Origin: an uncultured virus (IMG/VR IMGVR_UViG_3300023117_001979) | Lineage: Duplodnaviria; Heunggongvirae; Uroviricota; Caudoviricetes | Reading direction: 5' to 3' (one strand) | Length of the DNA: 64,000 nt | Virus record (IMG/VR): IMGVR_UViG_3300023117_001979 | Shown here: positions 25,136-52,174 of the stretch, piece after piece | Layout of the letters: every line of letters begins with the position of its first letter | How positions within the stretch are numbered: the stretch's first letter is position 1 | Program-made: the position numbers and the translations under genes | The notes under the pieces: model-generated | Databases searched by the model: none | The model's input: the letters and a program-made list of their open reading frames with translations, nothing else | What the model was told of the DNA's origin: nothing

Positions 25136-28100
25136 CGTTTTCCTATCTCTAGGTCTTTACCTGCGGTAATTGCTTCAACCATTCCATCTAGGTTGTCGAT
25201 AGTACCCATAATTGGGTGAACGCGTAGTGACTTTCCTGGGTCTTCTCCACCTATTCCACCTAGTAGTGAAGTAGAGTTAGCGACCATGTGTCCACTCTTT
25301 CCTAAGCCTGAAAGGTAACCTGTACTGCCCATATTATCAATCAAAGCATCAATGTAGCGAATGTCTAAGTCACCTAGCCCGGATTTACTATTCATCTGCT
25401 GGTTAAAAATTTCTTTAATACCCGCTAGAGCGGCTTCGAGACCAAAAGAATGAGCAATCCAAAAGGGGTCATTACACACGGTTAGGTACTCATCATAGTA
25501 CTCGCCAATTAACTCATATGCGTTCTCCATCATTGGGTTTGTTTTACCTGGCTTTGGCTTAGCGGGTCCTTTAATTACAATAGACCAACGCTCAGGACCA
25601 CCTGTTGGGTGAGCACCATGCTCACTAAATGCTCTTCCTCCGTTTATTAGGCCATGAATTTGATACTTGCCTAGTGACTCTTTCAATACAAGTAGGTATG
25701 AATCAATATCTAAGTATTCAGGAGTACCATGCGTTCTAACTCTTAGGCCCCCTTCTATTTCATTTACTGAAAACACTGGGCTATGACTGCTACCTTTGTA
25801 AGTCAAGTACTCTTTAACGAATTCCAAGTCCACTTCAAAGGTGTTTACTACTTCCATATCGAATACAATATCTATGGCTCGCTCATCAGATAGATACCTA
25901 AACACAGTCGCTATGTCATCTATGTAAAGTGTCGAACAGAAGTTAGCTAGCTTCTTAGCGTAATATTCATCATTGTATTCTTCTTTCAAAAAGTACTGCG
26001 TCACTGGTTGTTGAATGGCGGAGCGTGACAAATCTAGAATCTGAATAATACGGTCTGTTGTGGGCACTGTTCCTTTACCACCACCGTGAAACGCCCTAAG
26101 CCCAGCTTGTGTTACTGGTTCACCAACATTTGCAGCTCCTGTTGCACCAATCATTTCACCAGCGCGAGCTTTGCTTTCATTGTAATACTCGTAAGCGCGA
26201 GCAAAGTATTCAGCAGGGTTTTCAATTTCTCGCGCTTCGAATTCGGGGTCAATTTTTTCGCGCAGCCTTGACGAAATATTGAGGGGCAATCGTCCTAGCT
26301 TGGGAGTATTTTTGTACAGTGTTCCATCTTGACATGTGTCACATTCATCAAACAGTGTAATTCCATGCCTACACAGCTGTGACAAAAAGTGTGGCTGAAG
26401 TGAAAGTGAAAGTCCGTCTGAGTTATCGGGTCCTCGCGCATGGAATGGTTGAATCCCATCTTCACCAACTTGTAGCGACAAAACCTTGCCCAATCGCATA
26501 TTTACCAAATAGCCTCTATCGTCAATCATCAAGTTTTCAGATGCGCGCTTAAGTCGATGCTCAAGATAGCCCGACTTTTGAATCGCGCCCATTGATGATT
26601 CCATCGCGACGCGGCGGCCAGCGACAGACGCAAGGAAGTATTGTTCAGGAGAAAACCCAGTAGCATAAGAGTCCGGATTAAAGCCAAAAGCTTCTCCTGA
26701 GTAATCACCTTCTTTGAAGTGTGGCAGTAATCGACCTACCTTATTACCACTCATCAACCGGTTTCCACCTACTCTCACTTGCCCATATGCCCCTGACATT
26801 TGCTGAATGTTCAAATCACTAGCACGGGCCCCTGAAACAACTGCAATAGCCATTTGGTTTGCTGTACCTTGCAGCTCTTTGGTAAGTTTGATAATTTCAT
26901 CATCAAAGTCATTAGTGATATTTGCTACTTGCAATTCCATCCATGCAAGCGGGTCGTAAGTAAGCCAATGTCGGGAGTTTTCGGTGAAATAGTCATCAGG
27001 TAGGTTCTCTAGAGTCCTGTTAAAGAAAGCCTCAGTTATAACCCTAATTTTTTCATTCGCTTCGTCATAAAGTTGCTTCTTTTTCTCAATAAACTCAGGA
27101 GCGCTGAGCGATACATCCTCGATACCAATAGTATATCCGACATACAAATGAGCGGCGAAGAATAGACGATTTATGTGGTCAATGAAATCTGCTAGCATTC
27201 TAATGCCCAGCTCGTAATTAAAGTGATAAACAAAGGCAGCTCCTAGCACCATTGACCCGTTTTTGACACCCTTTGCATCAAGAGTACCATAGAGAAGCTT
27301 GCCGTTTTCTATTCTTGCTTCTGCTCCAGTTTTGTCTTTCCAAACACAATTAATTCCTTCGGGAATGAACATAGACACTACGGACTTGCCAGTGTAAAAC
27401 TTCTTGTAGTCAGGTTCGGGTAATGACTTGATGTAACTGAGGGTTCCTTCGTCATCTCTAGTGTACACTAGTCCGAGCATTTCAATGAGAGCCTTCTTCG
27501 AGAAGTAAACATACCCGTCTTTGTCGTAGCCGATTCCCCCTACTTTGTTGTAAGTACCATACGGCCCCTTGAACGACTTTTTGTCATCGTCTTCAAGCCG
27601 TTGATAGTCATTGTAAGAGATTTCTATTTCGTTGCCCTTCTTATCCTTGCCCCGATATACCAACTTGCTCTTGTTAGGGAAAGTAAGCAAGTAGGCACCT
27701 GATGTTTCGTCTTGGTCAGAGGCAATAGTAGGCCTACCATAGCGAGAGTGAATAATTTGCTTATTTACATCTAGAATATCTTTTGCTTCTTGGATAGCTT
27801 CGGGTGACTGTGGCACAAAGCAACGCATAGTATCGCCATCGTAGTCTGCGTTAAACGGCACACAAATAGTAGGGTTGAAACTAAATGCATGTTGTTTGAG
27901 CGGAACCACCTTGCCTGCCATTACATTCTGACGATGAAGAGCAGGGGCGCGGGTAAAAAGAATAATGTCGTGCTTTCTTAGCCCTCTATGAACAATATCG
28001 CCAATTTTGAGAGTGTCTGCTAAAATGGTGCGGAGGCTCTTTCCATACTCGTATCGATACTCTCGACGCGCCTGTTTGATTTCTTTTTCTTTACCTGCCT

Positions 28101-30111
28101 GGTCATCCCTACCACGATACTTGGCATTAATTCCTCTTAGAATCTCTTGATACCATACATTTTGTGCTTCAGGGTTTACCTGCCTCCCCAAAGAATCCAC
28201 TTCGAATGGGTCATAACGACTATTGGTTTCTTGTAATAGGCTAATTTTTCCTTTGCGAGCGCTCATCTTTTCAATATACTTGGCACCCCCAAAGTAGTTT
28301 TCAAAATCCCAACTATCGAGAGGTATTATTCCTTTTTTATCAGGTGGACAACCTTTCTTAACTGCTTCTCGCAAATCTTCGATATTTTCCTTTGTGACCC
28401 GCTCAGCAACAGTCATGCGAATACATGCTCCCATAGGAACACCGACTTCGTCTATTCTAAGCGAAGGGTTAGGAGTGATTACAGAATACATAGTATGCTC
28501 AGTGACTTTGGACTGGTTAATTCTTCGGATGTGGTTTTTCTTCTCCCCCGCTGGCTTAATGCGGTCATAAACGCCTTCTAGTGCTTCAGTTACTAGTCCA
28601 CTCCCGCCAAACTTTTGCTTTACAGCAGGTGTGCCAAACGGGCTTTGTGAAGTAAGAGCCTGAGTGCAGGCCTTGAACAAAGTACTCTCGCTACGAGCGA
28701 ATTTGGCTTGGTCCTCATACATGTCCAGGAGCTTCTGATTCACTCTTACAATGTTGATATACAGCTTGTCTAAGTCATTCATTTCTAAAGCACCATTAGG
28801 AGTTTCTTGTGGTGGGCGAACAGTGTTAGGTGCAATTGGAAATACATCCCAAAACAAGTAACTTGGGTGTGAGCGAGGTGCTCCTGTTAATTTGTCAACT
28901 TCAGTATTGAAGCTCAAAGCTAGAGCATGGTCGTTGGGGATTTTCTTCAAAGACTGGTAAACTACATCATATCGGTATACTTCTTTTCTTGGGAATTCAT
29001 CTTTTGCTCGTTCACCAGGCTTAGGAAAAAATTCTGCAGGCCGCCCAAATCCATATTGCATCTTAAACATGAGAATAGGGCTCTTTTCATCACAGTGCGG
29101 GCAGTGATTTACTTTCGTACTTAGGGGCGTCTTAACTGGGCCACCTTGGGCGATTTGATATGGCCCCAGGTCTCTTTTTGCTTCTCTGTAATAGTATTGG
29201 TAAGTTTCAGCAATAGACTTCCAAATAATGGCTGAGCCTTCCGGGCTAGTCATTTTGTTTTCATACATGACTTTCTTTGCTTGAGCAATTAATGGCTCTA
29301 AGTACTCGTCAGGCAAGACAACCTTGTGGCAATTTCGACATGTATATTTGAGAGTCTTTACTAAAGGCGAAGAATCAATATCACCGGTCAAGTAAAGGTA
29401 ATTAGGGACTGGGACTGCTAGCTTTATTCTTCCAAAGTGCCCTGGGCAGGAGTATTCCTTTGCCCCTTCTATGTTTGCAGTATGTCCACATGTGTAACAA
29501 GCATTACGCCCATGACTTCCAAGTCTTAAATCAGCTACCCCACCATGAATTGGTGCAGGTATGTCAGGAATCATCGTTTTACTTTGGCGCGGGGTTTCGT
29601 ATACTTCAGCATGGCGGATAACTCGGTCTCCACTTAGTAGCATAATTTCTTCAGGGCTCATCATATGATGATAGATTGCCCCTACTGCTTTTGATTCTTC
29701 ATGTAAGGTAGTGTTTGGATAAACTAGAAATCGAGCAGAAATTGGTCCTTCAATTACATAGCCTTCAAAATCAGTTTCAATCTGAACCCGGTCTGACACA
29801 TCTAGAATCTCAGTATATAGCCAATCTTCAGGTTCCGGGTCTCCGTTAAGGTAACCAGCTGTATCTTCAAAGGGCTTATTTGCTATTTTGCAGATAATTA
29901 GCGGCCCTACTTTACTTCGTAAGTTAGCGGCGTTTGGCGAAAGACGATACCACCGATATGCTTCACCTGAAGTCCTAGGAACCCATCGGATTGTGTCAAG
30001 ATTAAATTGAATGTATTTTTGGTTGTCTATCTCTTCTATTTCGTCTTTGCTAAAGAACCAATAAAACTCCTTAACTAGAGGAATTTCATTAGTGGTGTCT
30101 TGAATTACCAA
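25105..30111 (-). CDS. rpo1: DNA-directed RNA polymerase largest subunit (fused Rpo1N+Rpo1C / Rpb1-like)
   Basis: Clamp Zn sites CYTC...CPGHFG and CRNC...CPHC; RAPALHRQN; catalytic PFNADYDGD; SGARAS..NIQQM; bridge helix ...KSGYLEHRL; trigger loop GEPVTQAGLRAFHGGG. Confidence 0.95.
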   Translation of the reverse strand: MVIQDTTNEIPLVKEFYWFFSKDEIEEIDNQKYIQFNLDTIRWVPRTSGEAYRWYRLSPNAANLRSKVGPLIICKIANKPFEDTAGYLNGDPEPEDWLYTEILDVSDRVQIETDFEGYVIEGPISARFLVYPNTTLHEESKAVGAIYHHMMSPEEIMLLSGDRVIRHAEVYETPRQSKTMIPDIPAPIHGGVADLRLGSHGRNACYTCGHTANIEGAKEYSCPGHFGRIKLAVPVPNYLYLTGDIDSSPLVKTLKYTCRNCHKVVLPDEYLEPLIAQAKKVMYENKMTSPEGSAIIWKSIAETYQYYYREAKRDLGPYQIAQGGPVKTPLSTKVNHCPHCDEKSPILMFKMQYGFGRPAEFFPKPGERAKDEFPRKEVYRYDVVYQSLKKIPNDHALALSFNTEVDKLTGAPRSHPSYLFWDVFPIAPNTVRPPQETPNGALEMNDLDKLYINIVRVNQKLLDMYEDQAKFARSESTLFKACTQALTSQSPFGTPAVKQKFGGSGLVTEALEGVYDRIKPAGEKKNHIRRINQSKVTEHTMYSVITPNPSLRIDEVGVPMGACIRMTVAERVTKENIEDLREAVKKGCPPDKKGIIPLDSWDFENYFGGAKYIEKMSARKGKISLLQETNSRYDPFEVDSLGRQVNPEAQNVWYQEILRGINAKYRGRDDQAGKEKEIKQARREYRYEYGKSLRTILADTLKIGDIVHRGLRKHDIILFTRAPALHRQNVMAGKVVPLKQHAFSFNPTICVPFNADYDGDTMRCFVPQSPEAIQEAKDILDVNKQIIHSRYGRPTIASDQDETSGAYLLTFPNKSKLVYRGKDKKGNEIEISYNDYQRLEDDDKKSFKGPYGTYNKVGGIGYDKDGYVYFSKKALIEMLGLVYTRDDEGTLSYIKSLPEPDYKKFYTGKSVVSMFIPEGINCVWKDKTGAEARIENGKLLYGTLDAKGVKNGSMVLGAAFVYHFNYELGIRMLADFIDHINRLFFAAHLYVGYTIGIEDVSLSAPEFIEKKKQLYDEANEKIRVITEAFFNRTLENLPDDYFTENSRHWLTYDPLAWMELQVANITNDFDDEIIKLTKELQGTANQMAIAVVSGARASDLNIQQMSGAYGQVRVGGNRLMSGNKVGRLLPHFKEGDYSGEAFGFNPDSYATGFSPEQYFLASVAGRRVAMESSMGAIQKSGYLEHRLKRASENLMIDDRGYLVNMRLGKVLSLQVGEDGIQPFHARGPDNSDGLSLSLQPHFLSQLCRHGITLFDECDTCQDGTLYKNTPKLGRLPLNISSRLREKIDPEFEAREIENPAEYFARAYEYYNESKARAGEMIGATGAANVGEPVTQAGLRAFHGGGKGTVPTTDRIIQILDLSRSAIQQPVTQYFLKEEYNDEYYAKKLANFCSTLYIDDIATVFRYLSDERAIDIVFDMEVVNTFEVDLEFVKEYLTYKGSSHSPVFSVNEIEGGLRVRTHGTPEYLDIDSYLLVLKESLGKYQIHGLINGGRAFSEHGAHPTGGPERWSIVIKGPAKPKPGKTNPMMENAYELIGEYYDEYLTVCNDPFWIAHSFGLEAALAGIKEIFNQQMNSKSGLGDLDIRYIDALIDNMGSTGYLSGLGKSGHMVANSTSLLGGIGGEDPGKSLRVHPIMGTIDNLDGMVEAITAGKDLEIGKRYAERKSSRE

Positions 30112-31793: not shown

Positions 31794-32105
31794 ATGGCAA
31801 AATTTGCGCGAACAGTGTCAAAAATCGAACAATGCTTTAGAGTTTATGAAGACTCCCTGGAAGTGGATGTTCTTTCCTTCCATCAAATTCGTGATTGGTA
31901 TAACGAGCAAACCAAGGATGGAATTACTTCTGCTCGCCTAATTAACCTCCTTCGCAAGCGTCCTCAGTTTGTTTGGCAACATACCGAGCGTAAAATTGGC
32001 TCAAATGAAACATTGACCTTTTGGTCTATGAACAAAGAAGTCAAGCTGCCTAACCCTGCAGATGGTTGGGTGGTTATTGAGCAGGCAGCTCCGCTATCGT
32101 GCTAG
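31794..32105 (+). CDS. putative winged-helix protein
   Basis: LSFHQIRDWYN..TK.G.TS.RLINLLRK.PQF. Confidence 0.6.
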   Translation: MAKFARTVSKIEQCFRVYEDSLEVDVLSFHQIRDWYNEQTKDGITSARLINLLRKRPQFVWQHTERKIGSNETLTFWSMNKEVKLPNPADGWVVIEQAAPLSC

Positions 32106-32135
32106 TAGTACTACCCTAAGAAGCGCTACAATATG
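32105..32135 (+). promoter_or_regulatory. bipartite element copy 1: GTAGTACTAC-N8-GCGCTACAATATG
   Basis: Identical architecture in 4 intergenic copies. Confidence 0.8.
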
Positions 32136-32796: not shown

Positions 32797-32827
32797 GTAG
32801 TACTACCTTGGCGAGCGCTACAATATG
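32797..32827 (+). promoter_or_regulatory. bipartite element copy 2
   Basis: GTAGTACTAC cttggcga GCGCTACAATATG. Confidence 0.8.
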
Positions 32828-33230
32828 GAGCGAGGAGAAGACCTCGTATTCAATTAGGTGAAAAACTTGGATAGAACCCATGCTGTCAAGGAGGTTCTAG
32901 AAGGGATGTACGGAAAGCAGCGAGCATAACCTCGTCGTGAAACCGGTAGGAGGGCTTGTACCTCTGAGGTTGAATTTCCCGCATTCATATAGAATCTTCA
33001 AAGCATCAGTTTAGGGGCTCTTGGGTGAAATAGACCTGGAGCGACCCGTGACCCCGGTCAGAGACTATGCGGTTCAACAAACTCAGAATGTGCCACTCAG
33101 CGTAAAACCTGAGTCTGCACAGCCTACGGGCCGAGAAATAGACAAGCGAGTAGCCACGAAGCGTGGGACAAACAGTAGCTAGTTAGCCAATAGGCGATAT
33201 ACAGTTACTGATTGTGAATAGTAAACAACC

Positions 33231-33608
33231 CCCAACGGTGTTCGAGCCGACGGGGTTGGGATGGACTTAGAGTGGATTGCGCCGTAGATTCGGCTTAAAC
33301 TCAATGAAAATCCCGTTACAGAAACAACCAAAGCTGCCCTGAATTCAGTGCAGATGGTTGGAACTTTCCTTGGATGGAAGTACAATGTATGAATGCCGTC
33401 GCCTAAGTGCAGGGCCGCCACTTTCAATGGCCTGCTCAGAACGGATATGATGCTGGAATTGGGGTGAAATCCCAGTTATGAATGCATCTGTGCATGTATG
33501 CCTGACCATGGGGAACGATAGGAGAGGATGTTCACGCAACCTCTCCTATTAGCGAGGTAAAAATCGCCCAAGTCAAAAAAGTTAGCCCAACGGTGTTCGA
33601 GCCGACGG
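33231..33608 (+). repeat. 23-nt direct repeat CCCAACGGTGTTCGAGCCGACGG (33231-33253, 33586-33608)
   Basis: Exact match read from the sequence. Confidence 0.9.
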
Positions 33609-34250
33609 CTGCTTTGGCCTCTGCAACCGGTGAAGCGGACCGGAGGCCCCAAGACTTGGAATTAGGCTGTGGTAGCCAATCTTACATGTGAAAGCTGAGT
33701 CCGAGTAACCAACGGAACAATGAAGCTTTCAAGCAAGAAGCCGAATGCTTGCATTCGGCCTTCACATATCAGGAGGAAACCAAAAATTCTCCTGTATATA
33801 TGGGCACCAGGTGTATTCCTGGTGTACCGGGGGTCAGGTACATGTTTACCATGTCCTGGCTCCCAAGACCATATCAGTGAGTGGTGTAACTGATTGGAAG
33901 GTTGTTGGACAACCTGTATGGTATGCTAGCTTATGCTAGAAGTGCCTCCAACTAGAAGATTAAGTGCATTACGCACACACACAATTTACCACACTCGCCC
34001 GGACTCGATTTATCGAGTCTTTACATTATCTTGAGACTAAAATAGGGCTTAAGCCCGGCGAACCTATCACCGTAAGGATGGTGGGTAAAGTCGCACAGTA
34101 ATTTATTAGCTCTCTTCGGAGAGAAACAGAAATCCAGCTACCAGCCTCACGGCTGAGACTAATATACGCCCACATAAAGGGACCTCACCGGATAGAGCCG
34201 AGGGTCCTGTGGTGCGCGGAAGTTGGATGATAATGTAACTACAAAATATA

Positions 34251-34284
34251 CCAGGGTAGCGTTAAAACTGCCCTGGTTTTTTTT
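34251..34284 (+). terminator. hairpin + T8 terminator-like element
   Basis: CCAGGGTAG-cgttaaaa-CTGCCCTGG then TTTTTTTT. Confidence 0.8.
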
Positions 34285-34292
34285 GTATCAGT

Positions 34293-43454: not shown

Positions 43455-43787
43455 GTGGACAGAATTTGTAAATTATGCCGCATTACATTTGACTTCAAAG
43501 GTGGAAGTCTTTTGTGCTCGCTCTCATGCCAAGATGTGTATGAGCGCTTGCGAAACAACCTCTACTCTAGAACGGTAGCACCTGCAAAAAGCACGGTTGA
43601 CCGCCTAGAAACACAGACTAGGATAGCAAAGGAAGAACACCGCACTGCGGTTAGTACCCATAACGCTTTTTGTCAGTCTGACAACCCGCTTAAGTTTTTG
43701 ATAGAAACACTTGATGACGACACTTATCGGGCTGTTGTAAAAGAAATAGGAGATGATGTTCTTGCCTCAACTGAAAATTCGGATTGA
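43455..43787 (+). CDS. zinc-finger + coiled-coil protein
   Basis: CKLC...CSLSC; GTG start in ATAAGTG. Confidence 0.65.
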   Translation: MDRICKLCRITFDFKGGSLLCSLSCQDVYERLRNNLYSRTVAPAKSTVDRLETQTRIAKEEHRTAVSTHNAFCQSDNPLKFLIETLDDDTYRAVVKEIGDDVLASTENSD

Positions 43788-43862
43788 AACTGAAGAATAT
43801 ATCTATGAAGAATACTTTGAAGCTTGAGCTTCGAGTTTCTTTAGTCCTATAAGGTAGGTAAA

Positions 43863-44261
43863 ATGTCATTTGATATGCAACTAACCGTTACTGCCACTGG
43901 GTCGGATGTGTTTACACTCCTTCGTGCCCTTAATTTGGCAGGGCTGGAGCACCTCGTTGAGGAAGCCCCAGCTAAAGAAATTGTCGAGGTTTCTAACTTT
44001 GACAAATCTGATGGAATTGACTTGGATATGCTTCCAGGTACAGTTTCTTTTTCAAAGTCTCCTAAAAGGAAGAAGCGAAAGCGTCGTGCTCCGCTTACTG
44101 ACATTCAGAAGGCTAAAATCGAAGAGCTAGCACTGGCTAACAGTGCCGCAAAGATTGCGAAATGCCTCGATATTCCCTACAACACCGTTTGGGCGTTTGC
44201 GAGAGCAAACGATATTCAATTTGGTGTTAAAGAAAAAGGCGGAAGACCGCCTAAAAACTAA
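43863..44261 (+). CDS. C-terminal helix-turn-helix protein
   Basis: SAAKIAKCLDIPYNTVWAF; GGRPPK. Confidence 0.65.
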   Translation: MSFDMQLTVTATGSDVFTLLRALNLAGLEHLVEEAPAKEIVEVSNFDKSDGIDLDMLPGTVSFSKSPKRKKRKRRAPLTDIQKAKIEELALANSAAKIAKCLDIPYNTVWAFARANDIQFGVKEKGGRPPKN

Positions 44262-44294
44262 CTGCTTTCCTTAGTTTCTAGGGTAAGTATAAGC

Positions 44295-44624
44295 GTGGAT
44301 AAACAACCTAACACGACCCTTGCGGAGCTAGAAGAGCTTTGCACTGAATGGAATAGCCGTTCAGAAAAACCCTCAGCGGAGTACTTAACTTGGCTCCCTG
44401 AATTTCATGAAACAGTCGTAGAGGCTAGAGGAGGCTTGTTTGCTCTCTTCTTTGCTTACTGCGATTTAGATGAAGACAATGACCCGTCTAACGGAGTATA
44501 TCGTTGTCTTTATCCTCTCCTCCCGATAGGAAGCGGAGGCGTTGCTCTTATTACAAGGAACCCTGAAACCTTGGAGCACGAAGTTGAGAAGTTTTTGGCC
44601 CAAATACGCCATCAGCTCAGCTAA
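44295..44624 (+). CDS. hypothetical protein
   Basis: GTG start in ATAAGCGTG. Confidence 0.65.
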   Translation: MDKQPNTTLAELEELCTEWNSRSEKPSAEYLTWLPEFHETVVEARGGLFALFFAYCDLDEDNDPSNGVYRCLYPLLPIGSGGVALITRNPETLEHEVEKFLAQIRHQLS

Positions 44625-44632
44625 AAATAAGC

Positions 44633-45379
44633 GTGGAACAATTTACAAGCGACACGACCCTGGAGTATTTCTTAGAAAACAAGGAGAAGTTCATTCTCCC
44701 TGTTGATGAGACTCCGACGGACGAGCAAGTACTCAGTCTGTTAAACAACGCAGCCGTTACAATGAATTTTGAAAACGGTGACATTGATGGGATTGGATTT
44801 GATATTGACTCCCTGAAATTTATGCAAAACAACCCTCACCACATGGAGGGTCTACTCGTTAACCACATTGCCCTGATGCTTTACCGCCTCAGGTTCTTTG
44901 CTGACGAGCTAACTCCTCAAGAGTATGAAATCCTTGAGCGAGCCGTGTTTTGGAGCGACATTGGTAAGCAGGCAACTGCAAAACCAAAGAAACTGGAAGA
45001 CGGGACTGAAATCACGACTGCATACGGTCATGCTAAGAAGTCCTCAGAAATTCTCAGGTCCGCCCAAGGCCCTATATACCCAGCTATTGACTACTGGTGG
45101 TTCAAGCCTGTTAATTGGCTGGTGTGTGAGCACATGAATGCTCACAACCTAGAAAAGAACAAGGAAAAAACGGTTATACCTGATTTCCTTGTGCCTCAAA
45201 TCGAGGGACTAAAGCCCTGGGAATTCCCGGAGTGGGAGTACCTCGTTATACCCCACACTGCGGGTAAAGGATTCAACAAGCAAAGTTATGCTTGGATTAA
45301 CCGCAATCACAAGCTACTCCGTATTAAGGGTAAGCTAGACGAAGACGGTCGTATTTCCGACCTTTCTTTTAGTCTGTGA
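44633..45379 (+). CDS. HD-domain-like phosphohydrolase (degenerate HD: SD)
   Basis: HHMEG.L.NH, FWSDIGK, AYGHA..S, EHM. Confidence 0.6.
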   Translation: MEQFTSDTTLEYFLENKEKFILPVDETPTDEQVLSLLNNAAVTMNFENGDIDGIGFDIDSLKFMQNNPHHMEGLLVNHIALMLYRLRFFADELTPQEYEILERAVFWSDIGKQATAKPKKLEDGTEITTAYGHAKKSSEILRSAQGPIYPAIDYWWFKPVNWLVCEHMNAHNLEKNKEKTVIPDFLVPQIEGLKPWEFPEWEYLVIPHTAGKGFNKQSYAWINRNHKLLRIKGKLDEDGRISDLSFSL

Positions 45380-45394
45380 TATATAAGTGTGAAA

Positions 45395-45425
45395 GTAGTA
45401 CTACTTTCCCAAGCGCTACAATATG
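45395..45425 (+). promoter_or_regulatory. bipartite element copy 3
   Basis: GTAGTACTAC tttcccaa GCGCTACAATATG. Confidence 0.8.
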
Positions 45426-45427
45426 AG

Positions 45428-45920
45428 CCAGGGAGTGCATACTGCTCAGTATGTCCCCGTGCATTTATGCATATGGCCTGAGTAACGCTAGTGAAACATT
45501 AGTGATTAGTGATAAGTGAATAGGATAGAACAACTTGGACCGTGGCGGTAAACTGTCACCCATTCAAGTTATCCTTGAAATTGCCGCCTTTGCGAACCCC
45601 GATGCATTGGCGAAAGAGTAGGGCATTAGTGAATCAGGTTCTCAACCTGTGAAACTAATGAATTTCGAGACAAGTAAAATACGCTTTCCGAAGCGGTTTT
45701 GCCTGTTTTAAGGACTTGAAGTAACCACGACTCTAGCCGAGTTGACTCCGGGTTACTTCTCGTAGGCTCTCCTGCCCTAACGGGTAGAGAGATGGAGAAA
45801 TTTCAGCAAATAGCGACCTTGTTGCAACGAGTTAGCTGTTTGTACTGTGAAAACACTCTAATTTGGGCTTCACAGCCGATTTTCGAGTGTAAAACATGAA
45901 ATTAGCGTGGTGAACCAGAA
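45428..45920 (+). ncRNA. putative ~0.5 kb structured RNA 2a
   Basis: No ORF in the track; serial hairpins between element copies 3 and 4. Confidence 0.6.
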
Positions 45921-45928
45921 ATGTAGTA

Positions 45929-45959
45929 GTAGTACTACTTTGCTGGGCGCTACAACATG
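45929..45959 (+). promoter_or_regulatory. bipartite element copy 4
   Basis: GTAGTACTAC tttgctgg GCGCTACAACATG. Confidence 0.8.
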
Positions 45960-46884
45960 AACCGGGGGAGGAGTAATATCCAAACTCGGTTTTTTATTAG
46001 GCGTGGACAATGTGTGAAGGAGCAAGTACTTCGGGAAAGTGAATTCACACTAAGCTGACTCTGAGAGTCGGTAACGCTGATGATGCCCGACCTCCGTGCC
46101 TTCATGGCCTGTAACCGGAGGCGGGACTTCGACACATCGGGATGGCAGAAATACTGTGAGAGAGCAGTTAGATTGTCGCATGAGTAAGCAGCCGTCGCGC
46201 TGCAAGAGACTGTCAACTGGCAGTTTCGTAGACTGGAGACAGTTGCTCTAAGGGTGGAAGCAGTCAGAAGCTTCCTTGAGGGTAAACCATAATCCCTCTC
46301 CCTGTCCCGATAGTTAGACACGGTAAAGGCGGCGGTTTCGAAGACCAAAGCCTAGTGTTTGAAGGTGACTGAATGTGGGCAACTGAACTGCCCTAAAGTA
46401 CTGAGATGAAGCGGCTGGAGCAATCCGAAGCAAGGCAAGGAGTGGGTGACCACTTGAGCCTACAACAAATCTCAGGTCGGATGCAAGAAATTGTACTTTC
46501 TCATCATCCGTGGGAGTGCCAATGGCCCCCCTTCACCTTTCTAGTGTAGTAAACAAGCCGACCAAGATTAATTTTGGTTTCGGTGGATAATAGAAGCACG
46601 GCAATAAGGGCTAGTACCCGGAGTCGTGAACGACAGGAAAAGAGGAGAATACTCCTCCCTGGGACTACACACAAAGTGTGGAATTCTGATTCATTAAGCA
46701 GCATACGCAAGCTGTGAAGAAAGAATGAAACATAGGAATAGCTTTCCATTAACGATTGTATGCTGGGCGCAGCGCATGATTGGGATAGTGAAAATTGCGG
46801 ATTTATTCGTGATTCTTCCTACTTGCTACATTCCCCCCTGGGAATGAGCTAATAAGTCTTGAAATTGTAACGGAGGTCTGAAAA

Positions 46885-46968
46885 ATGGCCTCAAAACCGT
46901 TGAAAGACCTTTTCGATGAGCAGTCTGAATTATATGACAGCTTATTCGGAGATGACGCCAAGTTGTAA
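46885..46968 (+). CDS. 27-aa small ORF MASKPLKDLFDEQSELYDSLFGDDAKL
   Basis: GGAGGT RBS 7 nt upstream; manual translation. Confidence 0.45.
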   Translation: MASKPLKDLFDEQSELYDSLFGDDAKL

Positions 46969-46997
46969 AAATGACTTTGGCAATTCAAAAAATTCCT

Positions 46998-47033
46998 GGC
47001 GCATGTCTTACGGCATGCGCCTAAATTTTTTTT
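46998..47033 (+). terminator. hairpin + T tract
   Basis: GGCGCATGTC-ttac-GGCATGCGCC then taaaTTTTTTTT. Confidence 0.65.
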
Positions 47034-47057
47034 CTTATACTTGTACACAGGTCATTA

Positions 47058-47277
47058 CCTACGACCTCAATAAGTGGCACCACTGCGTCCCACCTGTGTT
47101 CAAGTGATGAAGTTGGGGTCGTAGGGAAGAGGGCAACAAAACCCCTGGACAGCTTTCCTGGGCGAGAATGAAATCGGGTCACCTAACCTGGTGGAGTTCT
47201 GACCTTAATGGATTACAAGACTTGTCTTGTTCCGGGACGCACGAGGCTTCACAACCTCGTGGGCTCTTGAACGCAGG
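47058..47277 (+). ncRNA. multiply pseudoknotted or switchable RNA element upstream of the DUF1257-like gene
   Basis: Three mutually crossing helices of 13, 8 and 12 bp. Confidence 0.6.
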
Positions 47278-47579
47278 GGTGTCACACCCAGTGTGGAAAC
47301 TGCCGTTTAGGCGGTTAAAACATTACAGACTACCTATTTGGTAGCTGTAAATTAATAATAAGATGCCTTTAGGCCGTGACCGAAGGTGTAGCAGGTACTC
47401 AGTTCTAATACAGGTACCTTTTATTTCATATTAAACATTAATATGGGGTAAAGAAGGTGGTTTAATATTGCCAAGGCTTTTTAGCCGAGGAGAACATGAA
47501 GCTATTGAGGGTGCAAACCCGTAACGAAAGTCAGATAGCAGGGTGGGATAGGCCACCTCCCATTAGGAACGGTAATAAT

Positions 47580-48128
47580 ATGAGTACAACTCAGAAAATT
47601 TCCATTAAGGGGCTCAAAATCGGTGAAGACCAATTTGAGCTTCTTGGCGAAACCGTCACTGAACTTGTCGGTGAAGCCGGAACAGTAACTATCAAAGAAA
47701 AAGGTAGTGAAGGACTCCTGATTAGGAGTCGACACCATGTGTCAGCAAATGCTAAGTTTGCTGACATTAAAATTCGTTTTCATGGTGCCAACTCAGATGT
47801 TGGTATCTATGTTGACGCAGATGGCCAAATTGGAATGGCCTGGGACGGATATGTGGTTCGTGGAAACGACCAAATGAAATCTGTCTTTGAAGGACGGTCT
47901 GACCGTCATACTTTTGAACGCAACTTGAACGCTATGTTCGTTGCAAAAACATTTGAAGAGACTGCAGTCCGTAAAGGATTCAGTACCTCAGGTGTTAAGC
48001 GTGTCTCACTCAAAGAAGAGAAAATGGGACAGTTTGAACTTGAGCTTGACACCGGTGGCCTTGGCTTCGGTGGCTTTGGAAACACAAATGAAAACACCAT
48101 GACTAACTCCCTACGAGGTGGTTTGTAA
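47580..48128 (+). CDS. DUF1257/Ycf35-like protein (start reassigned to MSTTQ)
   Basis: ADIKI...DVGI....G....WD.Y...LNAMF......A.RKGF pattern; next to a DUF2997-like gene. Confidence 0.6.
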   Translation: MSTTQKISIKGLKIGEDQFELLGETVTELVGEAGTVTIKEKGSEGLLIRSRHHVSANAKFADIKIRFHGANSDVGIYVDADGQIGMAWDGYVVRGNDQMKSVFEGRSDRHTFERNLNAMFVAKTFEETAVRKGFSTSGVKRVSLKEEKMGQFELELDTGGLGFGGFGNTNENTMTNSLRGGL

Positions 48129-48340
48129 TGGGTAAAATCAAAGTTATTGTAACTGAAGAAGGCGAAATTAAGATTGAAGCTAAAGAAGGGTTTGAAGGGA
48201 AGTCGTGCCAAGAGGCAATTGACTTCGTTATGCAAAACCTTCCAACTGGCTTTGCCTTTGAAGAGTTGGAGACTATCCGACATGGTAACTTTTCAGTAGT
48301 TGCAGAAAACCCAAAACAGGTTTACTTGCAAAAAGACTGA
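48128..48340 (+). CDS. DUF2997-like protein
   Basis: IKVIVTEEGEIKIEAKEGFEGKSCQEA. Confidence 0.75.
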   Translation: MGKIKVIVTEEGEIKIEAKEGFEGKSCQEAIDFVMQNLPTGFAFEELETIRHGNFSVVAENPKQVYLQKD

Positions 48341-48344
48341 ACCA

Positions 48345-50240
48345 ATAAGGAACGGTAAATATCCCTTGAGGGGGCGTCAGCCCCCAATGAAAAGAAAAAT
48401 TCTTTTCAGCCGCTGCGAGGAACACTTTCGTGTTCCTAGCCGCGTGATGAAAAGAATGACACATAATGCTAATAATGTCCTATGACAAAATATGCCGCGC
48501 TAAGGAACACGCAAGTGTTCCTCGCAGCGGCTGAAAAGTAGAAAACGAAACACAAGTATCGACACAGCGGTCGACAAAACTTCGACGAAGTTTACCCGAC
48601 GGTAATAGATACACTGTTTCTGAAATTATGATTGCTTTGATGCTTGAGGAGCTGAAGATGGAGATAAAAAGGTGCCAATCAGGTACCTGACACATATCAT
48701 CTCAAGTCTAGACCATAATATCCGCGGCTACCAATCTGAAAGATGGTGACCAAGATATTTGGAAATCTTTCCCAGAAGATTCCTGGACGGTACTGAGATT
48801 CCAAACTCTGGCTCTGATTAACTTTGAGACATGTCAAATGTCAGAATCCAATAATGCAAGCACTATAGCTTGCCATGGATGAATACGATACGGCTGGATT
48901 GTGGTGAGTAACCACAGTAAAATTTTGCCAGGGCACACACTCTGTGTTCTGTCTTGCCCAGTGGACCACAAGAAAGATGATTTCATGATGGCCAAGTTAA
49001 TCGAAACAAAAGGTCAACTTGCACCTGGTAATTGCCCGGTGTATGGAGAGAGCTCGCGAGGTTGCCACTGCGCAACTAAGCACTAAGAGTTACGACCGGC
49101 CTCTTCCTGAAGAGACAACTACTAGTATCAAAAAATCGTGTTACTGAAAAGCTATTCGAATAAAGAAAGACCACAGTGTCGCGACATTGCAGGTTAGTGC
49201 CACCATGGCACGACTACTGAACACCAATGTCTACAGAGACCTATTGGTCGTCGAAATGAGCCGAGCATCTATCTTGACATATGTCAGGATAGAGAACATT
49301 GAGTTCTAGTTTTGGTAAACCAGCTGGTAATACAAGCTGGAAATACAAAATAAAGATTCGAATAAAGAAATTCACTAAGTCTACTTGCGGAACCAGCGCT
49401 ATGGACAAGATGGTAACAGCAAGATGATTGCAAATAGCCAGTACTTGTAACCATAACACATGTCACGAGTTCTGAATTCACAATCGTGAAGATATTACTC
49501 AACTACAGTAGCTGCACCGCATAATCGATGGATAAATCAAAACATTAGCAAAATACATCTTAACTCCCGTTTTGGCACATGCCAAAACACTGGTAAAGAC
49601 TATTTGAGAGTGAGGGGGACCTTGGTCTATGAACCAAAGGTACCCCGAAACCGGTGTGAAAAAGACTCTGTCACTAATGCCTGCATGGCACGGTACAGAA
49701 CCTTTCGTTATCGAACCAGAGAAGAACTTCGGTTCCTCTAGTACCAACGCGGATTAGTGGTCCGCCTCTCACAGGGGCACCATTACGCAACTGAAATTCT
49801 AATCGATTAACGAAATAAAATCAGGTAACTAAACTTCCTAGAATTCTAAAGATACGACGAGTACTTGCAAAGAATGTAAACAGAGTTTACACACAGCAAT
49901 GTCGTCACAATAATTTAGAGCCCTGAGGACGAGGTTACTTAAATCCACCAAATTTCCCAACTGGAGTTGCTCCAGTAAACTGAGGAGCTAATAGATGCTC
50001 CAAATGTCCATACAAGGATATTCAGAAATTACTCTCGCGCGCTGAGGCGCCACTAAGAAAACTTGCAACACTGCAGCAGCGGCGTTGCAACTTCTTTGCC
50101 ACACATGGTCAGGTAGCTTGTACAAAGCATGCTGCCATGTAATAGATATACGACATGTGTCACGCATGGCGGGTCGATTTCACCCTTTCCTGTCCGGGAG
50201 GGTTGCCAATCGCCCGTGGTACCGATTCCGCCAGTTTGAA
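48345..50240 (+). ncRNA. putative ~1.9 kb hairpin-dense non-coding region 3
   Basis: Only short ORFs (82 aa or less) in any frame; many short palindromic hairpins. Confidence 0.55.
48402..48538. repeat. 26-bp perfect inverted repeat
   Basis: CTTTTCAGCCGCTGCGAGGAACACTT (48402-48427) / AAGTGTTCCTCGCAGCGGCTGAAAAG (48513-48538). Confidence 0.95.
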
Positions 50241-50260
50241 AATTGTATTAGGTAGGATAA

Positions 50261-52174
50261 ATGTCACAAGACAAAGTATACCAAAATTTCGTGGAAAAGA
50301 GAGCAAACCTCTCTAATACTTCACGACTTCTGCAACTGTGGAAAGCCACAGAACCAGGAGTAATTATTGAAACGCCAGAAATGGCCGAGACTGTAAGCGA
50401 AATTACTCGACTTGCAGCAACACCGGAAGCTCGTAATATTGCCCCTAAATGGCTTGGCGAGCGTCCTGAAGTGGTTAGAGTTTCTTTCTCTAACTACCCA
50501 CAAGAACTCCGTGTAATCGAGCCAACAATAACGAAGCTCGCTAACGGAAAACAAACGGTTACCTACACCAACCCAATTGAGGGTGATGGTGATTTTAACC
50601 CAATGGATGGCAACGCGAAAGTGATGCCTTACGGAGACCCAGTCGATGTGCCTGAAAACTTCTTGGAACCATTTCCAAAAAGCGCGCACACTAAGATTTT
50701 GGGTGCTTCGCAACGAGTTAAATTCCGAGCTAGGGCTGACCCTGAGAGCATTATTATGACTTTCTTGGAATCCCTTGACGAATTTGATTCACAAAAAAAT
50801 GGACGAGGACGAATTTATGTTGTCGAAGCCGCAGAAAATATGTTGACCCTGAAAACCATGGTCGAAATGCTGCGTGAAAAAATTGACATGTTCCGAAACC
50901 AGCAAACGACTGGTCTCGCGATTGTTCTTCTTGTTCCACTTGGATTCGATAAGATGCCTGACAGCATCAAAGAAAGTTTCTTCAGTATGAAGTGGGAGCG
51001 ACCCCATAAGACACACTGGCGTGACTTAATCCAATCATTCGCTGCGGCCAAAAATATGGTCATGGACGAAGATAGCAACGGAAACCCGATAGTGGGTGTT
51101 TCAGCTAAAAACCTAGAGCGTTGTGTCAGTGCTGTTACTGGTATGACTAAAGCTCGTGGTGAAGCTGCCTTGCTAATGTGTACTGCAAAGTACAACAAAA
51201 TTCTCCCTGAAGTAATTCTAAGAGAAAAGTCAAACCTGGTTAAAGACTACGGATTGACACTACACAACCCTGACCCTGATGAAGCGGTTGGGGGCATGCA
51301 ACAATACCACGAATGGTTAGCGGAAGAAATCGCATGTGCGACCCCGCTTGCTGCTGGATATGGACTTGTTGGTAATCGAATGGTTATCCTAGCAGGTCCT
51401 CCAGGTACGGGTAAGTCGCTTGGTGTAAAGGTGCTTGGCTCCATGACTGGTCGTCCAATTGTTCGACTAGCTGCAACTGACCTTCGTAAGAAGTATGTCG
51501 GTGACGGAGAAGCACGACTACAAATCGCCATTGACTTGGCGGGTAGCATGGACGGAATCATTTGGATTGATGAAGTCGAAAAGCTAGTACAAAACACATC
51601 AGCAGAACGAGATGGTGGCTCAAGTGCCTCCGTTCTCTCTATTTTGTTGACTGAGATTCAAGAGAATAAGTCGAACATTATGTTCGCATTTACAGCAAAC
51701 CGCGTCGAAATGCTCCCCCCGGAGTTTGTTGACCGTGCTGGTTCTCGATTTTACTTTGGCTATCCTACGCGTGAGGAGCAACTTGCGATTCTTCGCATTC
51801 ATATTGCTGCTATGCGTAGGTACGAGCCAGATAACCCTGAAGCCGATGAGCGTGGCTATGCTCGCCGGAACCCTGACGACTATCCATTCTTGGAAGAACT
51901 CCTGAAGTACACCGATGGATGTAACGGTCGCCAGATTGCGAATGCTGTTCAAGCAAGCTTCAAAATTGCGTTCACCACACACCAAGGTGAGCCAACAAAG
52001 GAAGACTTCGTAAAGGGTATCAATCGAAACGCTATGAATTCCACTCCCCAAAAGGAGTTGGAGCTTATTCGCGACAACTGTTTGGCTCGTGGTTTCATCC
52101 CAGCCAATTCCGAAACTGAAGAAGAAGCTGAGTCTGTCGACTTCGGTGAAGTAGGAATCGCAGGTCGTCTTTGA
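50261..52174 (+). CDS. Ycf46-like AAA+ ATPase
   Basis: VGGM, Walker A GPPGTGKS, KYVGDGE, Walker B IWIDEVEK, TANRVEMLPPE; inactive N-terminal AAA-like region. Confidence 0.88.
   Translation: MSQDKVYQNFVEKRANLSNTSRLLQLWKATEPGVIIETPEMAETVSEITRLAATPEARNIAPKWLGERPEVVRVSFSNYPQELRVIEPTITKLANGKQTVTYTNPIEGDGDFNPMDGNAKVMPYGDPVDVPENFLEPFPKSAHTKILGASQRVKFRARADPESIIMTFLESLDEFDSQKNGRGRIYVVEAAENMLTLKTMVEMLREKIDMFRNQQTTGLAIVLLVPLGFDKMPDSIKESFFSMKWERPHKTHWRDLIQSFAAAKNMVMDEDSNGNPIVGVSAKNLERCVSAVTGMTKARGEAALLMCTAKYNKILPEVILREKSNLVKDYGLTLHNPDPDEAVGGMQQYHEWLAEEIACATPLAAGYGLVGNRMVILAGPPGTGKSLGVKVLGSMTGRPIVRLAATDLRKKYVGDGEARLQIAIDLAGSMDGIIWIDEVEKLVQNTSAERDGGSSASVLSILLTEIQENKSNIMFAFTANRVEMLPPEFVDRAGSRFYFGYPTREEQLAILRIHIAAMRRYEPDNPEADERGYARRNPDDYPFLEELLKYTDGCNGRQIANAVQASFKIAFTTHQGEPTKEDFVKGINRNAMNSTPQKELELIRDNCLARGFIPANSETEEEAESVDFGEVGIAGRL

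What the first reader, a model, noticed from the sequence alone, without database searches (positions are those of the whole stretch)
45962..47033. Large structured RNA 2b (~1.07 kb) with nested multi-helix domains
Seen: long-range closing helices ATCGGGATGG/CTGTCCCGAT (46136/46302), GAAGGTGA/TCACCTTT (46361/46533), CTGAGAT/ATCTCAG (46401/46469), GTGTAGT/ACTACAC (46544/46663) and CAGCATAC/GTATGCTG (46699/46758). Each encloses further hairpins, with purine-rich linkers. It starts at element copy 4 and ends at a hairpin+T tract. The texture is ribozyme- or intron-like, but I found no group II domain V or group I core. Inference: a second novel large ncRNA.
Basis: partly seen in the sequence, partly recalled or inferred. 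Interest (0 to 1): 0.76.

Follow-up and report, generated by a model that had tools for sequence, protein, structure and literature searches.

The report
Composite RNA with tandem manA-like domains
This stretch encodes an abundant RNA of about 1 kb from a marine, probably archaeal, virus-like element; it is built from separately folding modules, two of which resemble the known manA RNA, and it ends in a tiny conserved protein gene.

Summary
The structured RNA is real and lies on the + strand, but it is not one integrated, wholly novel 1.07-kb ncRNA. It is a chain of modules:
- a 5' hairpin region;
- two tandem domains that match Rfam manA (RF01745) over the full model length. Scores are 29.9 and 33.7 bits, below the 55.2-bit cut-off; E-values are 7.8e-4 and 5.8e-5 for the whole window;
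- "domain X" (46542-46674), present in 11 sources;
- a "leader motif" (46673-46854), present in 28 sources;
- a hairpin that sequesters the ribosome-binding site;
- a hairpin+T8 terminator.

Covariation is strong for the leader motif (38 of 51 pairs compensatory, 0 of 500 shuffles as good) and for domain X (17 of 31, 0 of 500). The fifth, CAGCATAC/GTATGCTG, is not supported by relatives.

The manA-like pair occurs only in the window, L022 and L028, so it is an accessory insert. Metatranscriptome contigs cover the RNA at roughly 3- to 50-fold higher depth than the flanking genes.

The neighbouring genes (thermosome, resolvase, PolB, archaeal RNA polymerase A) match published "magrovirus group D". 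A 2026 preprint reports that manA RNAs self-assemble in vitro. I rate this a new variant of a known kind, of moderate to high interest.

The parts
45929..45961 (+). Promoter-like element, copy 4: GTAGTACTAC-N8-GCGCTACAA followed by CATG
   Evidence: There are 4 exact matches in the window, all on the + strand, against 0.01 expected by chance. Relatives carry two tandem copies upstream of the same gene. Its role as a promoter is inferred, not shown.
45962..46002 (+). 5' hairpin (AACCGGGG...CTCGGTT) followed by TTTTTTATTA
   Evidence: Read from the sequence and present in the MFE fold. A 5' stem also follows the element in relatives, but with different sequence. The T run is not conserved.
46003..46118 (+). 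5' module of about three hairpins
   Evidence: Shared only with L022. It folds as hairpins in the MFE. I made no covariation test.
46119..46312 (+). manA-like domain 1; closing stem 46136-46145 with 46302-46311
   Evidence: Rfam RF01745 matches 46119-46308 at 29.9 bits over model positions 1-192, with E 7.8e-4 for the whole window. The MFE of the isolated domain gives a P1-closed multi-stem junction. L022 has a homologue at 24.1 bits and L028 one at 27.2 bits that is cut at its 5' end.
46313..46354 (+). Linker hairpin between the two domains; the Rfam hit for domain 2 includes it as its first hairpin
46355..46541 (+). manA-like domain 2; closing stem 46361-46368 with 46533-46540, P3 46401-46407 with 46469-46475
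   Evidence: Rfam RF01745 matches 46341-46539 at 33.7 bits, with E 5.8e-5 for the whole window. The conserved junction strings GUGACUGAAU, UAAAGU, CAGGU and CACCUU match the consensus. L028 keeps P1 to P5 with changed stem sequences, and that fold lies 0.8 kcal/mol above its MFE.
46542..46674 (+). Domain X: a junction closed by GTGTAGT/ACTACAC, with the conserved strings GAUAAUAGAA and AAUAAGGGCUAGUACCCGGAG
   Evidence: Model R3 gives 12 matches in 11 of 43 sources. In that alignment 87.2% of cells are paired, 17 of 31 pairs are compensatory and 0 of 500 shuffles do as well. No Rfam family matches.
46673..46854 (+). Leader motif: five hairpins, the conserved core of the transcript
   Evidence: Model R2 gives one + strand match in each of 28 of 43 sources. 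On 25 sequences 91.8% of cells are paired, 38 of 51 pairs are compensatory and 0 of 500 shuffles do as well. No Rfam family matches.
46873..46892 (+). Hairpin pairing the Shine-Dalgarno sequence GAGGTC with codons 1 to 3 (GGCCTC); the A and T of the ATG lie in the loop and its G in the stem
   Evidence: RNAalifold on 15 loci predicts 5 pairs here, 3 of them with changes on both sides in 4, 2 and 5 sequences.
46885..46968 (+). Small ORF of 27 aa, MASKPLKDLFDEQSELYDSLFGDDAKL
   Evidence: The frame is open in 15 of 15 close loci, at 27 aa in 14 and 31 aa in 1. The third codon position varies most: 25 variable sites against 16 and 16. The other two frames are open in only 3 and 4 of 15. An ORF of 26 to 30 aa is also present in 8 more distant loci and absent in 3.
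46998..47033 (+). Terminator-like hairpin (10 pairs, 7 G-C) plus a T8 run
   Evidence: Found by the scan. The stem is nearly invariant in 15 loci. RNA contigs nevertheless run through it.

Best explanation
This is a composite, highly expressed + strand RNA of a marine element resembling magrovirus group D. The host is probably a Poseidoniales archaeon, which is inferred rather than shown.

The conserved core is a 180-nt five-hairpin leader motif, a 27-aa ORF whose ribosome-binding site is locked in a hairpin, and a terminator. Different lineages have inserted autonomous folded modules between the promoter-like element and this core. In this window the inserts are a hairpin module, two tandem manA-like domains and domain X.

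I read it as a dual-function RNA. The folded modules act as RNA: they bind a factor or each other, since manA-family RNAs self-assemble in vitro. The hairpin over the ribosome-binding site keeps translation of the small protein conditional.

Shown: the modular anatomy, the conserved structure, the coding signature of the small ORF, and presence at high depth in RNA libraries.
Inferred: the promoter, the host, the RNA ends, any binding or assembly, and any regulation.
For: manA likeness. Two adjacent full-length RF01745 matches lie on the + strand at 33.7 and 29.9 bits, with E 5.8e-5 and 7.8e-4 for 64 kb against 4227 families. The homologous domains in L022 (30.9 and 24.1 bits) and L028 (27.2 bits) also match. 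Isolated domains fold into the P1-closed junction. L028 domain 2 keeps all five helices with different sequences.

Modularity. Relatives share 45384-45968 and 46586/46675-47298. The stretch holding both manA-like domains is found only in L022 and partly in L028. None of the other 17 relative loci searched with Rfam has a manA match.

Conserved structure. The leader motif is in 28 of 43 sources with strong covariation. Domain X is in 11 of 43.

Small ORF. It shows a coding pattern and is present in 23 of the 26 loci with a complete leader. In the 3 loci without it the leader runs straight into the terminator, which argues that the RNA itself has a role.

Strand. The fold z-score is -3.76 on + and -1.30 on -. 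All model hits with E below 0.01 are on the + strand.

Expression. Twelve metatranscriptome runs hold the stretch. Exact RNA contigs over 46067/46218-47133/47604 have depths of 364 to 2365, against 41 to 180 for most flanking-gene contigs.

Context. The window encodes a thermosome (500 bits), a fused archaeal RNA polymerase A'/A'' (408 bits), PolB and a resolvase. This is the gene set that Philosof et al. 2017 describe for group D (passages read). One relative locus lies in a MAG titled as an archaeon.

Self-assembly of the family. The manA family forms decamers and a 60-mer cage in vitro, according to bioRxiv 10.64898/2026.07.01.735769 (abstract, passages and section 8 read).
Against: Both manA-like scores lie well below Rfam's 55.2-bit cut-off.

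Only three loci carry these domains. One is 87% identical to the window, so covariation for them rests on one divergent relative and was read by hand. Rfam did not detect L028 domain 2. My own model R1 found only its 3' part.

Most relatives lack the manA-like pair, so it is dispensable for the core function.

All RNA evidence comes from assembled contigs, which cannot give strand, ends or true levels. The depth rises near 46080-46140, not at 45962, and contigs run through the terminator.

Nothing shows binding, assembly or regulation. The P4 loop motif GUAC, which could self-pair, is not kept in L028.

manA was not found over the cut-off in any of 151 genomes of the order of the archaeal MAG.

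The host assignment rests on gene content, one MAG bin and the literature.
Confidence: 0.55

Rival explanations
1. The whole 920-nt upstream region is a cis-acting 5' leader. The manA-like domains, domain X and the leader motif are sensor domains (riboswitch-like or protein-binding). Their state decides whether the hairpin over the ribosome-binding site opens, so the only output is translation of the 27-aa protein.
For: manA was proposed as a cis-regulatory riboswitch candidate lying in 5' UTRs (Weinberg 2010, passages read). The hairpin over the ribosome-binding site covaries. The small ORF follows the leader motif in 23 of 26 loci. Everything lies on one strand between one promoter-like element and one terminator.
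Against: The manA-like domains lie 345 to 770 nt upstream of the start codon, with two other folded domains in between and no terminator or anti-terminator next to them. They are absent from most relatives that keep the ORF. In 3 loci the leader motif is kept without any ORF. No ligand is known for manA.
Confidence: 0.2
2. The stretch gives several separate stable RNAs, made by processing of a precursor or from internal starts. The abundant species would begin near 46013-46140 and extend past the terminator, so the reader's 45962-47033 unit is not a single molecule.
For: RNA contig depth jumps about ten-fold near 46080-46140. Bin 46074-46307 reaches 27413 in run X12 and 62594 in X16. Adapter-abutting contig ends sit at 46013 and 47276. 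High-depth contigs run to 47133-47604. An A/T-rich TTTTTTATTA lies at 45990-45999.
Against: Contigs cannot show starts, ends or levels, and depths sum relatives' RNAs as well (the tool's own caveats). In run X12 one low-depth contig runs from 43500 to 46079, across element copy 4 and the first ~115 nt of the transcript. No conserved promoter-like element lies inside the unit.
Confidence: 0.15
3. This is one integrated large ribozyme- or intron-like RNA, in which the long-range helices form a single tertiary architecture.
For: The sequence has high predicted stability and many nested helices. It matches no known large-RNA family, so novelty is not excluded.
Against: Modules come and go independently among relatives with clean boundaries. 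No helix joins different modules in the comparative structures. No intron or ribozyme model matches at E up to 10. Part of the stretch is coding.
Confidence: 0.05
4. There is no functional RNA here: the stretch is chance structure, or a protein gene on the - strand (the 132-aa frame at 45950-46348).
For: A 132-aa - strand frame exists in the window.
Against: In L022, which is 87% identical in DNA, that frame is broken into pieces of at most 85 aa, and it has no Pfam match. The covariation, the strand bias and the RNA depth all argue against this reading.
Confidence: 0.03

Closest known systems
manA RNA motif (Rfam RF01745; Weinberg et al. 2010, Genome Biol 11:R31)
   Same: Both domains align to the covariance model over its full length. 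They share the P1-closed multi-stem junction and the junction strings GUGACUGAAU, UAAAGU and CAGGU. Domain 1 also has the P5 loop GGGUAAACCAUAAUCCC. The setting is marine and virus-like.
   Different: Scores are 29.9 and 33.7 bits against a cut-off of 55.2. Two copies sit in tandem inside a much longer RNA. [quoted passage not shown] The carrier looks archaeal, not a cyanophage or a gamma-proteobacterium.
Self-assembling natural RNAs: manA decamers and 60-mer cage (bioRxiv 10.64898/2026.07.01.735769). ROOL, GOLLD and OLE multimers are recalled, not read here
   Same: The domains belong to, or lie near, the family that the preprint shows to oligomerise through loop-loop contacts. The RNA is abundant and lies on a mobile element, as is recalled for ROOL and GOLLD.
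   Different: No assembly was tested here, and the preprint's interface loops could not be mapped onto these domains. The domains here are embedded in tandem in a 1-kb transcript, not free RNAs under 200 nt.
Tandem riboswitch aptamers such as the glycine riboswitch (recalled)
   Same: Two related aptamer-like domains lie head to tail in one leader.
   Different: No ligand is known and there is no adjacent expression platform. The two domains are very divergent from each other: no direct repeat was detected, and a model built from domain 2 did not find domain 1.
Dual-function RNAs that are both a structured regulatory RNA and an mRNA for a small protein, such as SgrS/SgrT and RNAIII/hld (recalled)
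   Same: A structured RNA carries a conserved very small ORF.
   Different: No base-pairing target is known. This RNA is far longer, and it sits in a virus-like element.
Magrovirus group D (Philosof et al. 2017, Curr Biol 27:1362; Xu et al. 2023, PMC10160649)
   Same: The window encodes a thermosome, a resolvase, PolB and an archaeal-type RNA polymerase A, which is exactly the gene set listed for group D.
   Different: I made no PolB phylogeny and saw only 64 kb of a 135.7-kb contig. The papers' passages that I read mention no non-coding RNAs.

Membership tests
manA RNA (RF01745) | Score at or above Rfam's gathering threshold of 55.2 bits | tested here: not met
   The scores are 33.7 and 29.9 bits. 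Relatives score 30.9, 24.1 and 27.2 bits.
manA RNA (RF01745) | Significant full-length alignment to the covariance model | tested here: met
   Both hits cover model positions 1-192 of 192. E is 5.8e-5 and 7.8e-4 for the whole window and all 4227 families, and 9.7e-7 and 1.3e-5 for the 1.07-kb stretch alone.
manA RNA (RF01745) | A closing stem P1 enclosing a junction of four further stems (P2 to P5) | tested here: met
   The MFE folds of the isolated domains of the window and L022 give this architecture. L028 domain 2 adopts it at -89.9 kcal/mol, against an MFE of -90.7.
manA RNA (RF01745) | Conserved junction and loop nucleotides of the consensus | tested here: inconclusive
   Domain 2 matches GUGACUGAAU, UAAAGU, CAGGU and CACCUU. 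Domain 1 matches mainly the P5 hairpin and its 3' strand and is weak in the 5' junction (alignments).
manA RNA (RF01745) | Helices kept by compensatory changes in homologues | tested here: inconclusive
   Only L028 is divergent. Its P2, P3 and P4 of domain 2, and its P4 and P5 of domain 1, differ in sequence but still pair. I read this by hand; no statistical test is possible with 3 loci.
manA RNA (RF01745) | Location in the 5' UTR of mannose/fructose, nucleotide, ibpA or photosynthesis genes of marine bacteria or cyanophages | tested here: not met
   The domains lie 345 to 770 nt upstream of a 27-aa ORF, in an element with archaeal-type genes. The feature is as described in Weinberg 2010.
manA RNA (RF01745) | Self-assembly into pentamer-based oligomers (preprint, 2026) | not testable with these tools
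   Known only from cryo-EM of other family members.
   None of these families matches at E up to 10 in 45962-47033 or in 45300-50300, on either strand.
Magrovirus group D (carrier element) | Genes for PolB, thermosome, resolvase and archaeal RNA polymerase A | tested here: met
   Thermosome 623-2173 (NF041082, 500 bits). Resolvase 18216-19139. PolB 22394-25135. Fused A'/A'' 25105-30111 on the - strand (NF006336, 408 bits). From; the definition is.
Magrovirus group D (carrier element) | No capsid or other morphogenetic genes; PolB falls in the group D clade | tested here: inconclusive
   No capsid, portal or terminase family appeared among 60 ORFs scanned with Pfam or 23 scanned with PHROGs. 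Only 64 kb of the 135.7-kb contig was seen, and I built no tree.

The most novel reading that the evidence does not exclude
In an element that seems to lack capsid genes, the tandem manA-like domains might make this very abundant RNA assemble in the cell into multimeric shells or networks. That would be an RNA-built scaffold or container serving the element, for example by protecting or concentrating its RNA, its small protein or its DNA. It would also be the first manA-class RNA at work in the archaeal domain.
Probability: 0.08. Interest if true: 0.92.

Novelty: new variant of a known kind. Interest (0 to 1): 0.62.

Why it matters
- manA is an orphan RNA class whose biology is unknown. A 2026 preprint reports that it builds cages in vitro, but no natural setting explains why.
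- Here manA-like domains appear in a new arrangement: in tandem, embedded in a 1-kb RNA that is at high depth in RNA libraries. The carrier is also new: an element with archaeal-type genes that resembles the enigmatic, capsid-less magrovirus group D.
- This gives a concrete natural RNA on which to test assembly, and a hint that part of the marine-metagenome manA diversity may belong to archaeal elements.
- The locus also yields two RNA motifs with strong covariation and no Rfam family, domain X and the leader motif, plus a conserved 27-aa protein.
- It shows structured RNA modules being swapped in and out of one transcript among close relatives.

Tried and rejected
**Searches for relatives that found nothing**
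- Neither flanking protein, as a single query, found relatives in viral contigs. The alignment A1 found none either.
- The promoter-like pattern had 0 matches in viral contigs.
- blastn of 45300-47500 against phage records gave no match.
- Two P5-loop patterns in viral contigs returned 3 and 4 loci (L043-L049). None has a manA match, so I treat them as chance.

- No whole genome is held for the window.
- The metagenome loci could not be searched as whole records.

**Alignments and models dropped**
- MAFFT misplaced the large insertion of L028 domain 2, so I did not use alignment A3.
- Model R1, built from two near-identical domain-2 sequences, was too narrow. It found only the window, L022 and the 3' part of L028, and did not find domain 1.
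- Alignment A7 was spoiled by N's in L050. I dropped that row and rebuilt the alignment as A8.
- RNAalifold on the raw domain X alignment missed the outer stem because of a one-base register shift in the window and L023.

**Host-lineage searches**
- RF01745 in 151 genomes of the order of the archaeal MAG: 0 over the cut-off, and one 16.7-bit match.
- Model R2 in the same 151 genomes hit only the MAG's own contig.

**Other negatives**
- Four short strings from the domains were not found in the seed alignments in Weinberg 2010's supplement. This is a weak test, because gaps break such strings.
- Earlier findings of this scan returned nothing.
- The - strand 132-aa frame was rejected.
- Stretches of the laid region without contig cover, and the 50-nt skip 46623-46674 seen in two low-depth contigs (relatives' forms), carry no weight.
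- Loop-loop complementarity as a sign of assembly: I looked by eye only. The one self-complementary loop motif, GUAC in P4 of domain 2, is not kept in L028. I did not pursue this.

Full report
**Observation**

The + strand folds much better than its complement:

| Stretch | + strand | - strand |
|---|---|---|
| 45962-47033, MFE (kcal/mol) | -375.6 | -311.9 |
| 45962-46885, z-score | -3.76 | -1.30 |
| 45962-46885, shuffles as good | 0 of 20 | 4 of 20 |

The stretch has no ORF of 100 aa or more on the + strand. A 132-aa frame on the - strand is broken into pieces of at most 85 aa in the relative L022 and has no Pfam match. A structured + strand RNA is therefore a sound reading.

**Match to a known family**

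At Rfam's gathering thresholds nothing in the window matches. With E-value reporting, the only significant matches in all 64 kb are two adjacent, full-length hits to manA (RF01745, cut-off 55.2 bits), both on the + strand:

| Place | Bits | E (whole window) |
|---|---|---|
| 46119-46308 | 29.9 | 7.8e-4 |
| 46341-46539 | 33.7 | 5.8e-5 |

- No intron, GOLLD, ROOL, OLE or HEARO model appears at E up to 10.
- Folded alone, each domain gives a closing stem around a junction of four further stems, as in the manA model.
- Domain 2 carries the family's junction strings. Domain 1 matches chiefly in the P5 hairpin.

**Relatives and modularity**

- The downstream gene (47580-48128, 181 aa) has many relatives in marine data. 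An alignment of them retrieved 42 metagenome loci and one locus in a genome collection.
- L001 is the window's own contig, 135.7 kb long.
- blastn shows that relatives share the upstream unit with both promoter-like elements (45384-45968), the region from 46586 or 46675 to 47298, and 47455-47578.
- The stretch holding both manA-like domains is found only in L022 (87% identical, and lacking 46548-46674) and partly in L028.
- Rfam finds manA-like hits in L022 (30.9 and 24.1 bits) and in L028 (27.2 bits, cut at its 5' end). It finds none in the other 17 relative loci searched.
- L028 also has a second domain, which Rfam missed because P3 encloses about 165 extra bases. It keeps P1 to P5 with different stem sequences, and that fold lies 0.8 kcal/mol above its MFE.
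- That is the only covariation available for the manA-like part. I read it by hand.

**Two further conserved modules**

| | Leader motif | Domain X |
|---|---|---|
| Place | 46673-46854 | 46542-46674 |
| Model | R2 | R3 |
| Matches | one + strand match in each of 28 of 43 sources, including relatives with only 50% protein identity | 12 matches in 11 of 43 sources |
| Sequences in the pair count | 25 (22 distinct) | 12 |
| Cells paired, observed / shuffled | 91.8% / 72.1% | 87.2% / 75.3% |
| Cells paired when partners are slid | 39-45% | 34-52% |
| Pairs changed on both sides | 38 of 51 | 17 of 31 |
| Shuffles as good | 0 of 500 | 0 of 500 |

- These alignments are fitted to the models, which favours their structures.
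- One leader hairpin was not in the model and still shows 5 of 8 compensatory pairs.
That outer helix is mostly invariant: 75% of cells are paired and one pair is compensatory. The window and L023 use a register shifted by one base.
Relatives keep two local hairpins there instead.
- Neither module matches an Rfam family.
- Only the window carries both the manA-like pair and domain X.

**A small gene**

- At 46885-46968 lies a 27-aa ORF, preceded by GGAGG.
- The frame is open in 15 of 15 close loci, at 27 aa in 14 and 31 aa in 1.
- The third codon position varies most, with 25 variable sites against 16 and 16. The other two frames are open in only 3 and 4 of 15.
- ORFs of 26 to 30 aa with the same ends occur in 8 more distant loci.
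- In 3 loci of one lineage the leader motif runs straight into the terminator with no ORF.
- A covarying hairpin pairs the ribosome-binding site with codons 1 to 3.
- The hairpin+T8 terminator is confirmed. Its stem is almost invariant in 15 loci.

**Expression**

- Twelve metatranscriptome runs hold 59 to 97% of the sampled words of 45380-47580.
- In four of these runs, exact contigs over 46067/46218-47133/47604 have depths of 364, 1122, about 2000 and 2365. Most contigs over the flanking genes have depths of 41 to 180, though one in X15 (44748-45853) reaches 658.
- These are assembled contigs. They cannot give strand, ends or levels, and their depths include relatives' RNAs.
- Depth rises near 46080-46140, not at 45962. 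Contigs run through the terminator. Adapter sequence abuts contig ends at 46013 and 47276.
- The true ends therefore remain open.

**Carrier**

- The window encodes a thermosome subunit (500 bits), a fused archaeal RNA polymerase A'/A'' (408 bits, against 126 bits for bacterial beta'), PolB and a resolvase.
- PolB is at most about 27% identical to the PolB of haloarchaeal viruses and cyanophages.
- Philosof et al. 2017 describe exactly this gene set for "group D" magroviruses, of which no capsid genes or closed genomes were known (passages read).
- Later papers call group D MCP-lacking and possibly plasmid-like (passages read).
- One relative locus lies in a MAG titled as an archaeon.
- The archaeal host is an inference from these points.
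- manA was not found over its cut-off in any of 151 genomes of that MAG's order. The leader motif was found there only on the MAG's own copy of the element.

**How it most likely works**

- I read the RNA as a composite. The core is the leader motif, the small ORF and the terminator. Lineage-specific folded inserts lie between the promoter-like element and this core.
- The element GTAGTACTAC-N8-GCGCTACAA occurs 4 times in the window, against 0.01 expected, and twice per relative locus. That it is a promoter is inferred.
- The modules probably act as RNA, because the leader motif survives without the ORF in 3 loci. The hairpin over the ribosome-binding site makes translation of the small protein conditional.
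- For the manA-like pair, the best lead comes from a 2026 preprint reporting that manA RNAs form decamers and a 60-mer cage through loop-loop contacts. I tested no assembly here.
- The rivals, in falling order of likelihood, are: a pure cis-regulatory leader, several processed RNAs, one integrated ribozyme, and no function.

**Comparison and novelty**

- The domains work like manA and are probably distant members, but they fail Rfam's cut-off and the family's usual gene context.
- The tandem, embedded arrangement, the archaeal-type carrier and the two unnamed motifs are new as far as my searches show. My paper searches on manA listed 9 papers each, of which I read three. The passages I searched in three magrovirus papers mention neither non-coding RNAs in these elements nor manA outside bacteria and cyanophages.
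- Of the supplements, only the supplementary files of Weinberg 2010 were searched.
- I rate the finding a new variant of a known kind, with interest 0.62.

Noticed in passing
window 47040-47298: A block after the terminator is conserved in all relatives, including distant ones. It has a hairpin whose stem changes while the loop UUCACAAC stays. RNA contigs cover it, and an adapter-abutting contig end lies at 47276. It is probably another structured RNA.
   Followed up: partly
window 47455-47578: A strongly conserved structured leader lies directly upstream of the 181-aa gene. It has a covarying hairpin (CCGAGGC/GCCGAGG against CCATGGG/CCTATGG). No Rfam family matches; the only hit is a 16-bit chance match to the Moco riboswitch.
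   Followed up: partly
window 45433-45910: The upstream unit 2a, which follows element copy 3, is conserved in relatives. Its RNA contigs have depths of 650 to 1260, and adapter-abutting ends lie at 45534 in two runs.
   Followed up: partly
window 32797-34288: Element copy 2 is followed by about 1.45 kb without ORFs, ending in a hairpin plus T9. An exact 23-mer is repeated at 33231 and 33586. This looks like a second long structured RNA. Copy 1 (32105) instead precedes a ribosome-binding site and a 58-aa ORF.
   Followed up: no
window 48340-50261: Another 1.9-kb stretch has no ORF of 100 aa or more. RNA contigs cover it at ordinary depth.
   Followed up: no
window 47580-48340: The 181-aa protein looks DUF1257-like, by a protein-atlas lead only (score 0.91). 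The next 70-aa protein matches DUF2997 just under the cut-off (22.9 against 24.1 bits). I recall these two families lying next to each other in cyanobacteria and their phages.
   Followed up: partly
window 45929-45955, 45395-45421, 32797-32823, 32105-32131: The element has a perfect 10-nt palindrome, GTAGTACTAC. In relatives the bases flanking it seem to change in a paired way (CCAG/CTGG, GTGC/GCAC, GACTAA/TTAGTC). That would suggest a hairpin or a dimeric protein site rather than a plain promoter.
   Followed up: no
L017 2860-2997 and L028 719-830; L010 120-208: Other relatives carry other inserts. L017 and L028 have an extra module of about 100 nt between the leader motif and the small ORF. 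L010 has a second partial copy of domain X.
   Followed up: no
window 623-30111: The thermosome, a GmrSD-like nuclease (15746-17479), a serine recombinase, PolB, a fused archaeal RNA polymerase A'/A'' and RNase H lie together. This gene set matches published magrovirus group D.
   Followed up: partly
window 46998-47021: The terminator stem GGCGCATGTCT...ACATGCGCC is nearly invariant in 15 loci. That is unusual for a plain terminator and hints at a sequence-specific role.
   Followed up: no
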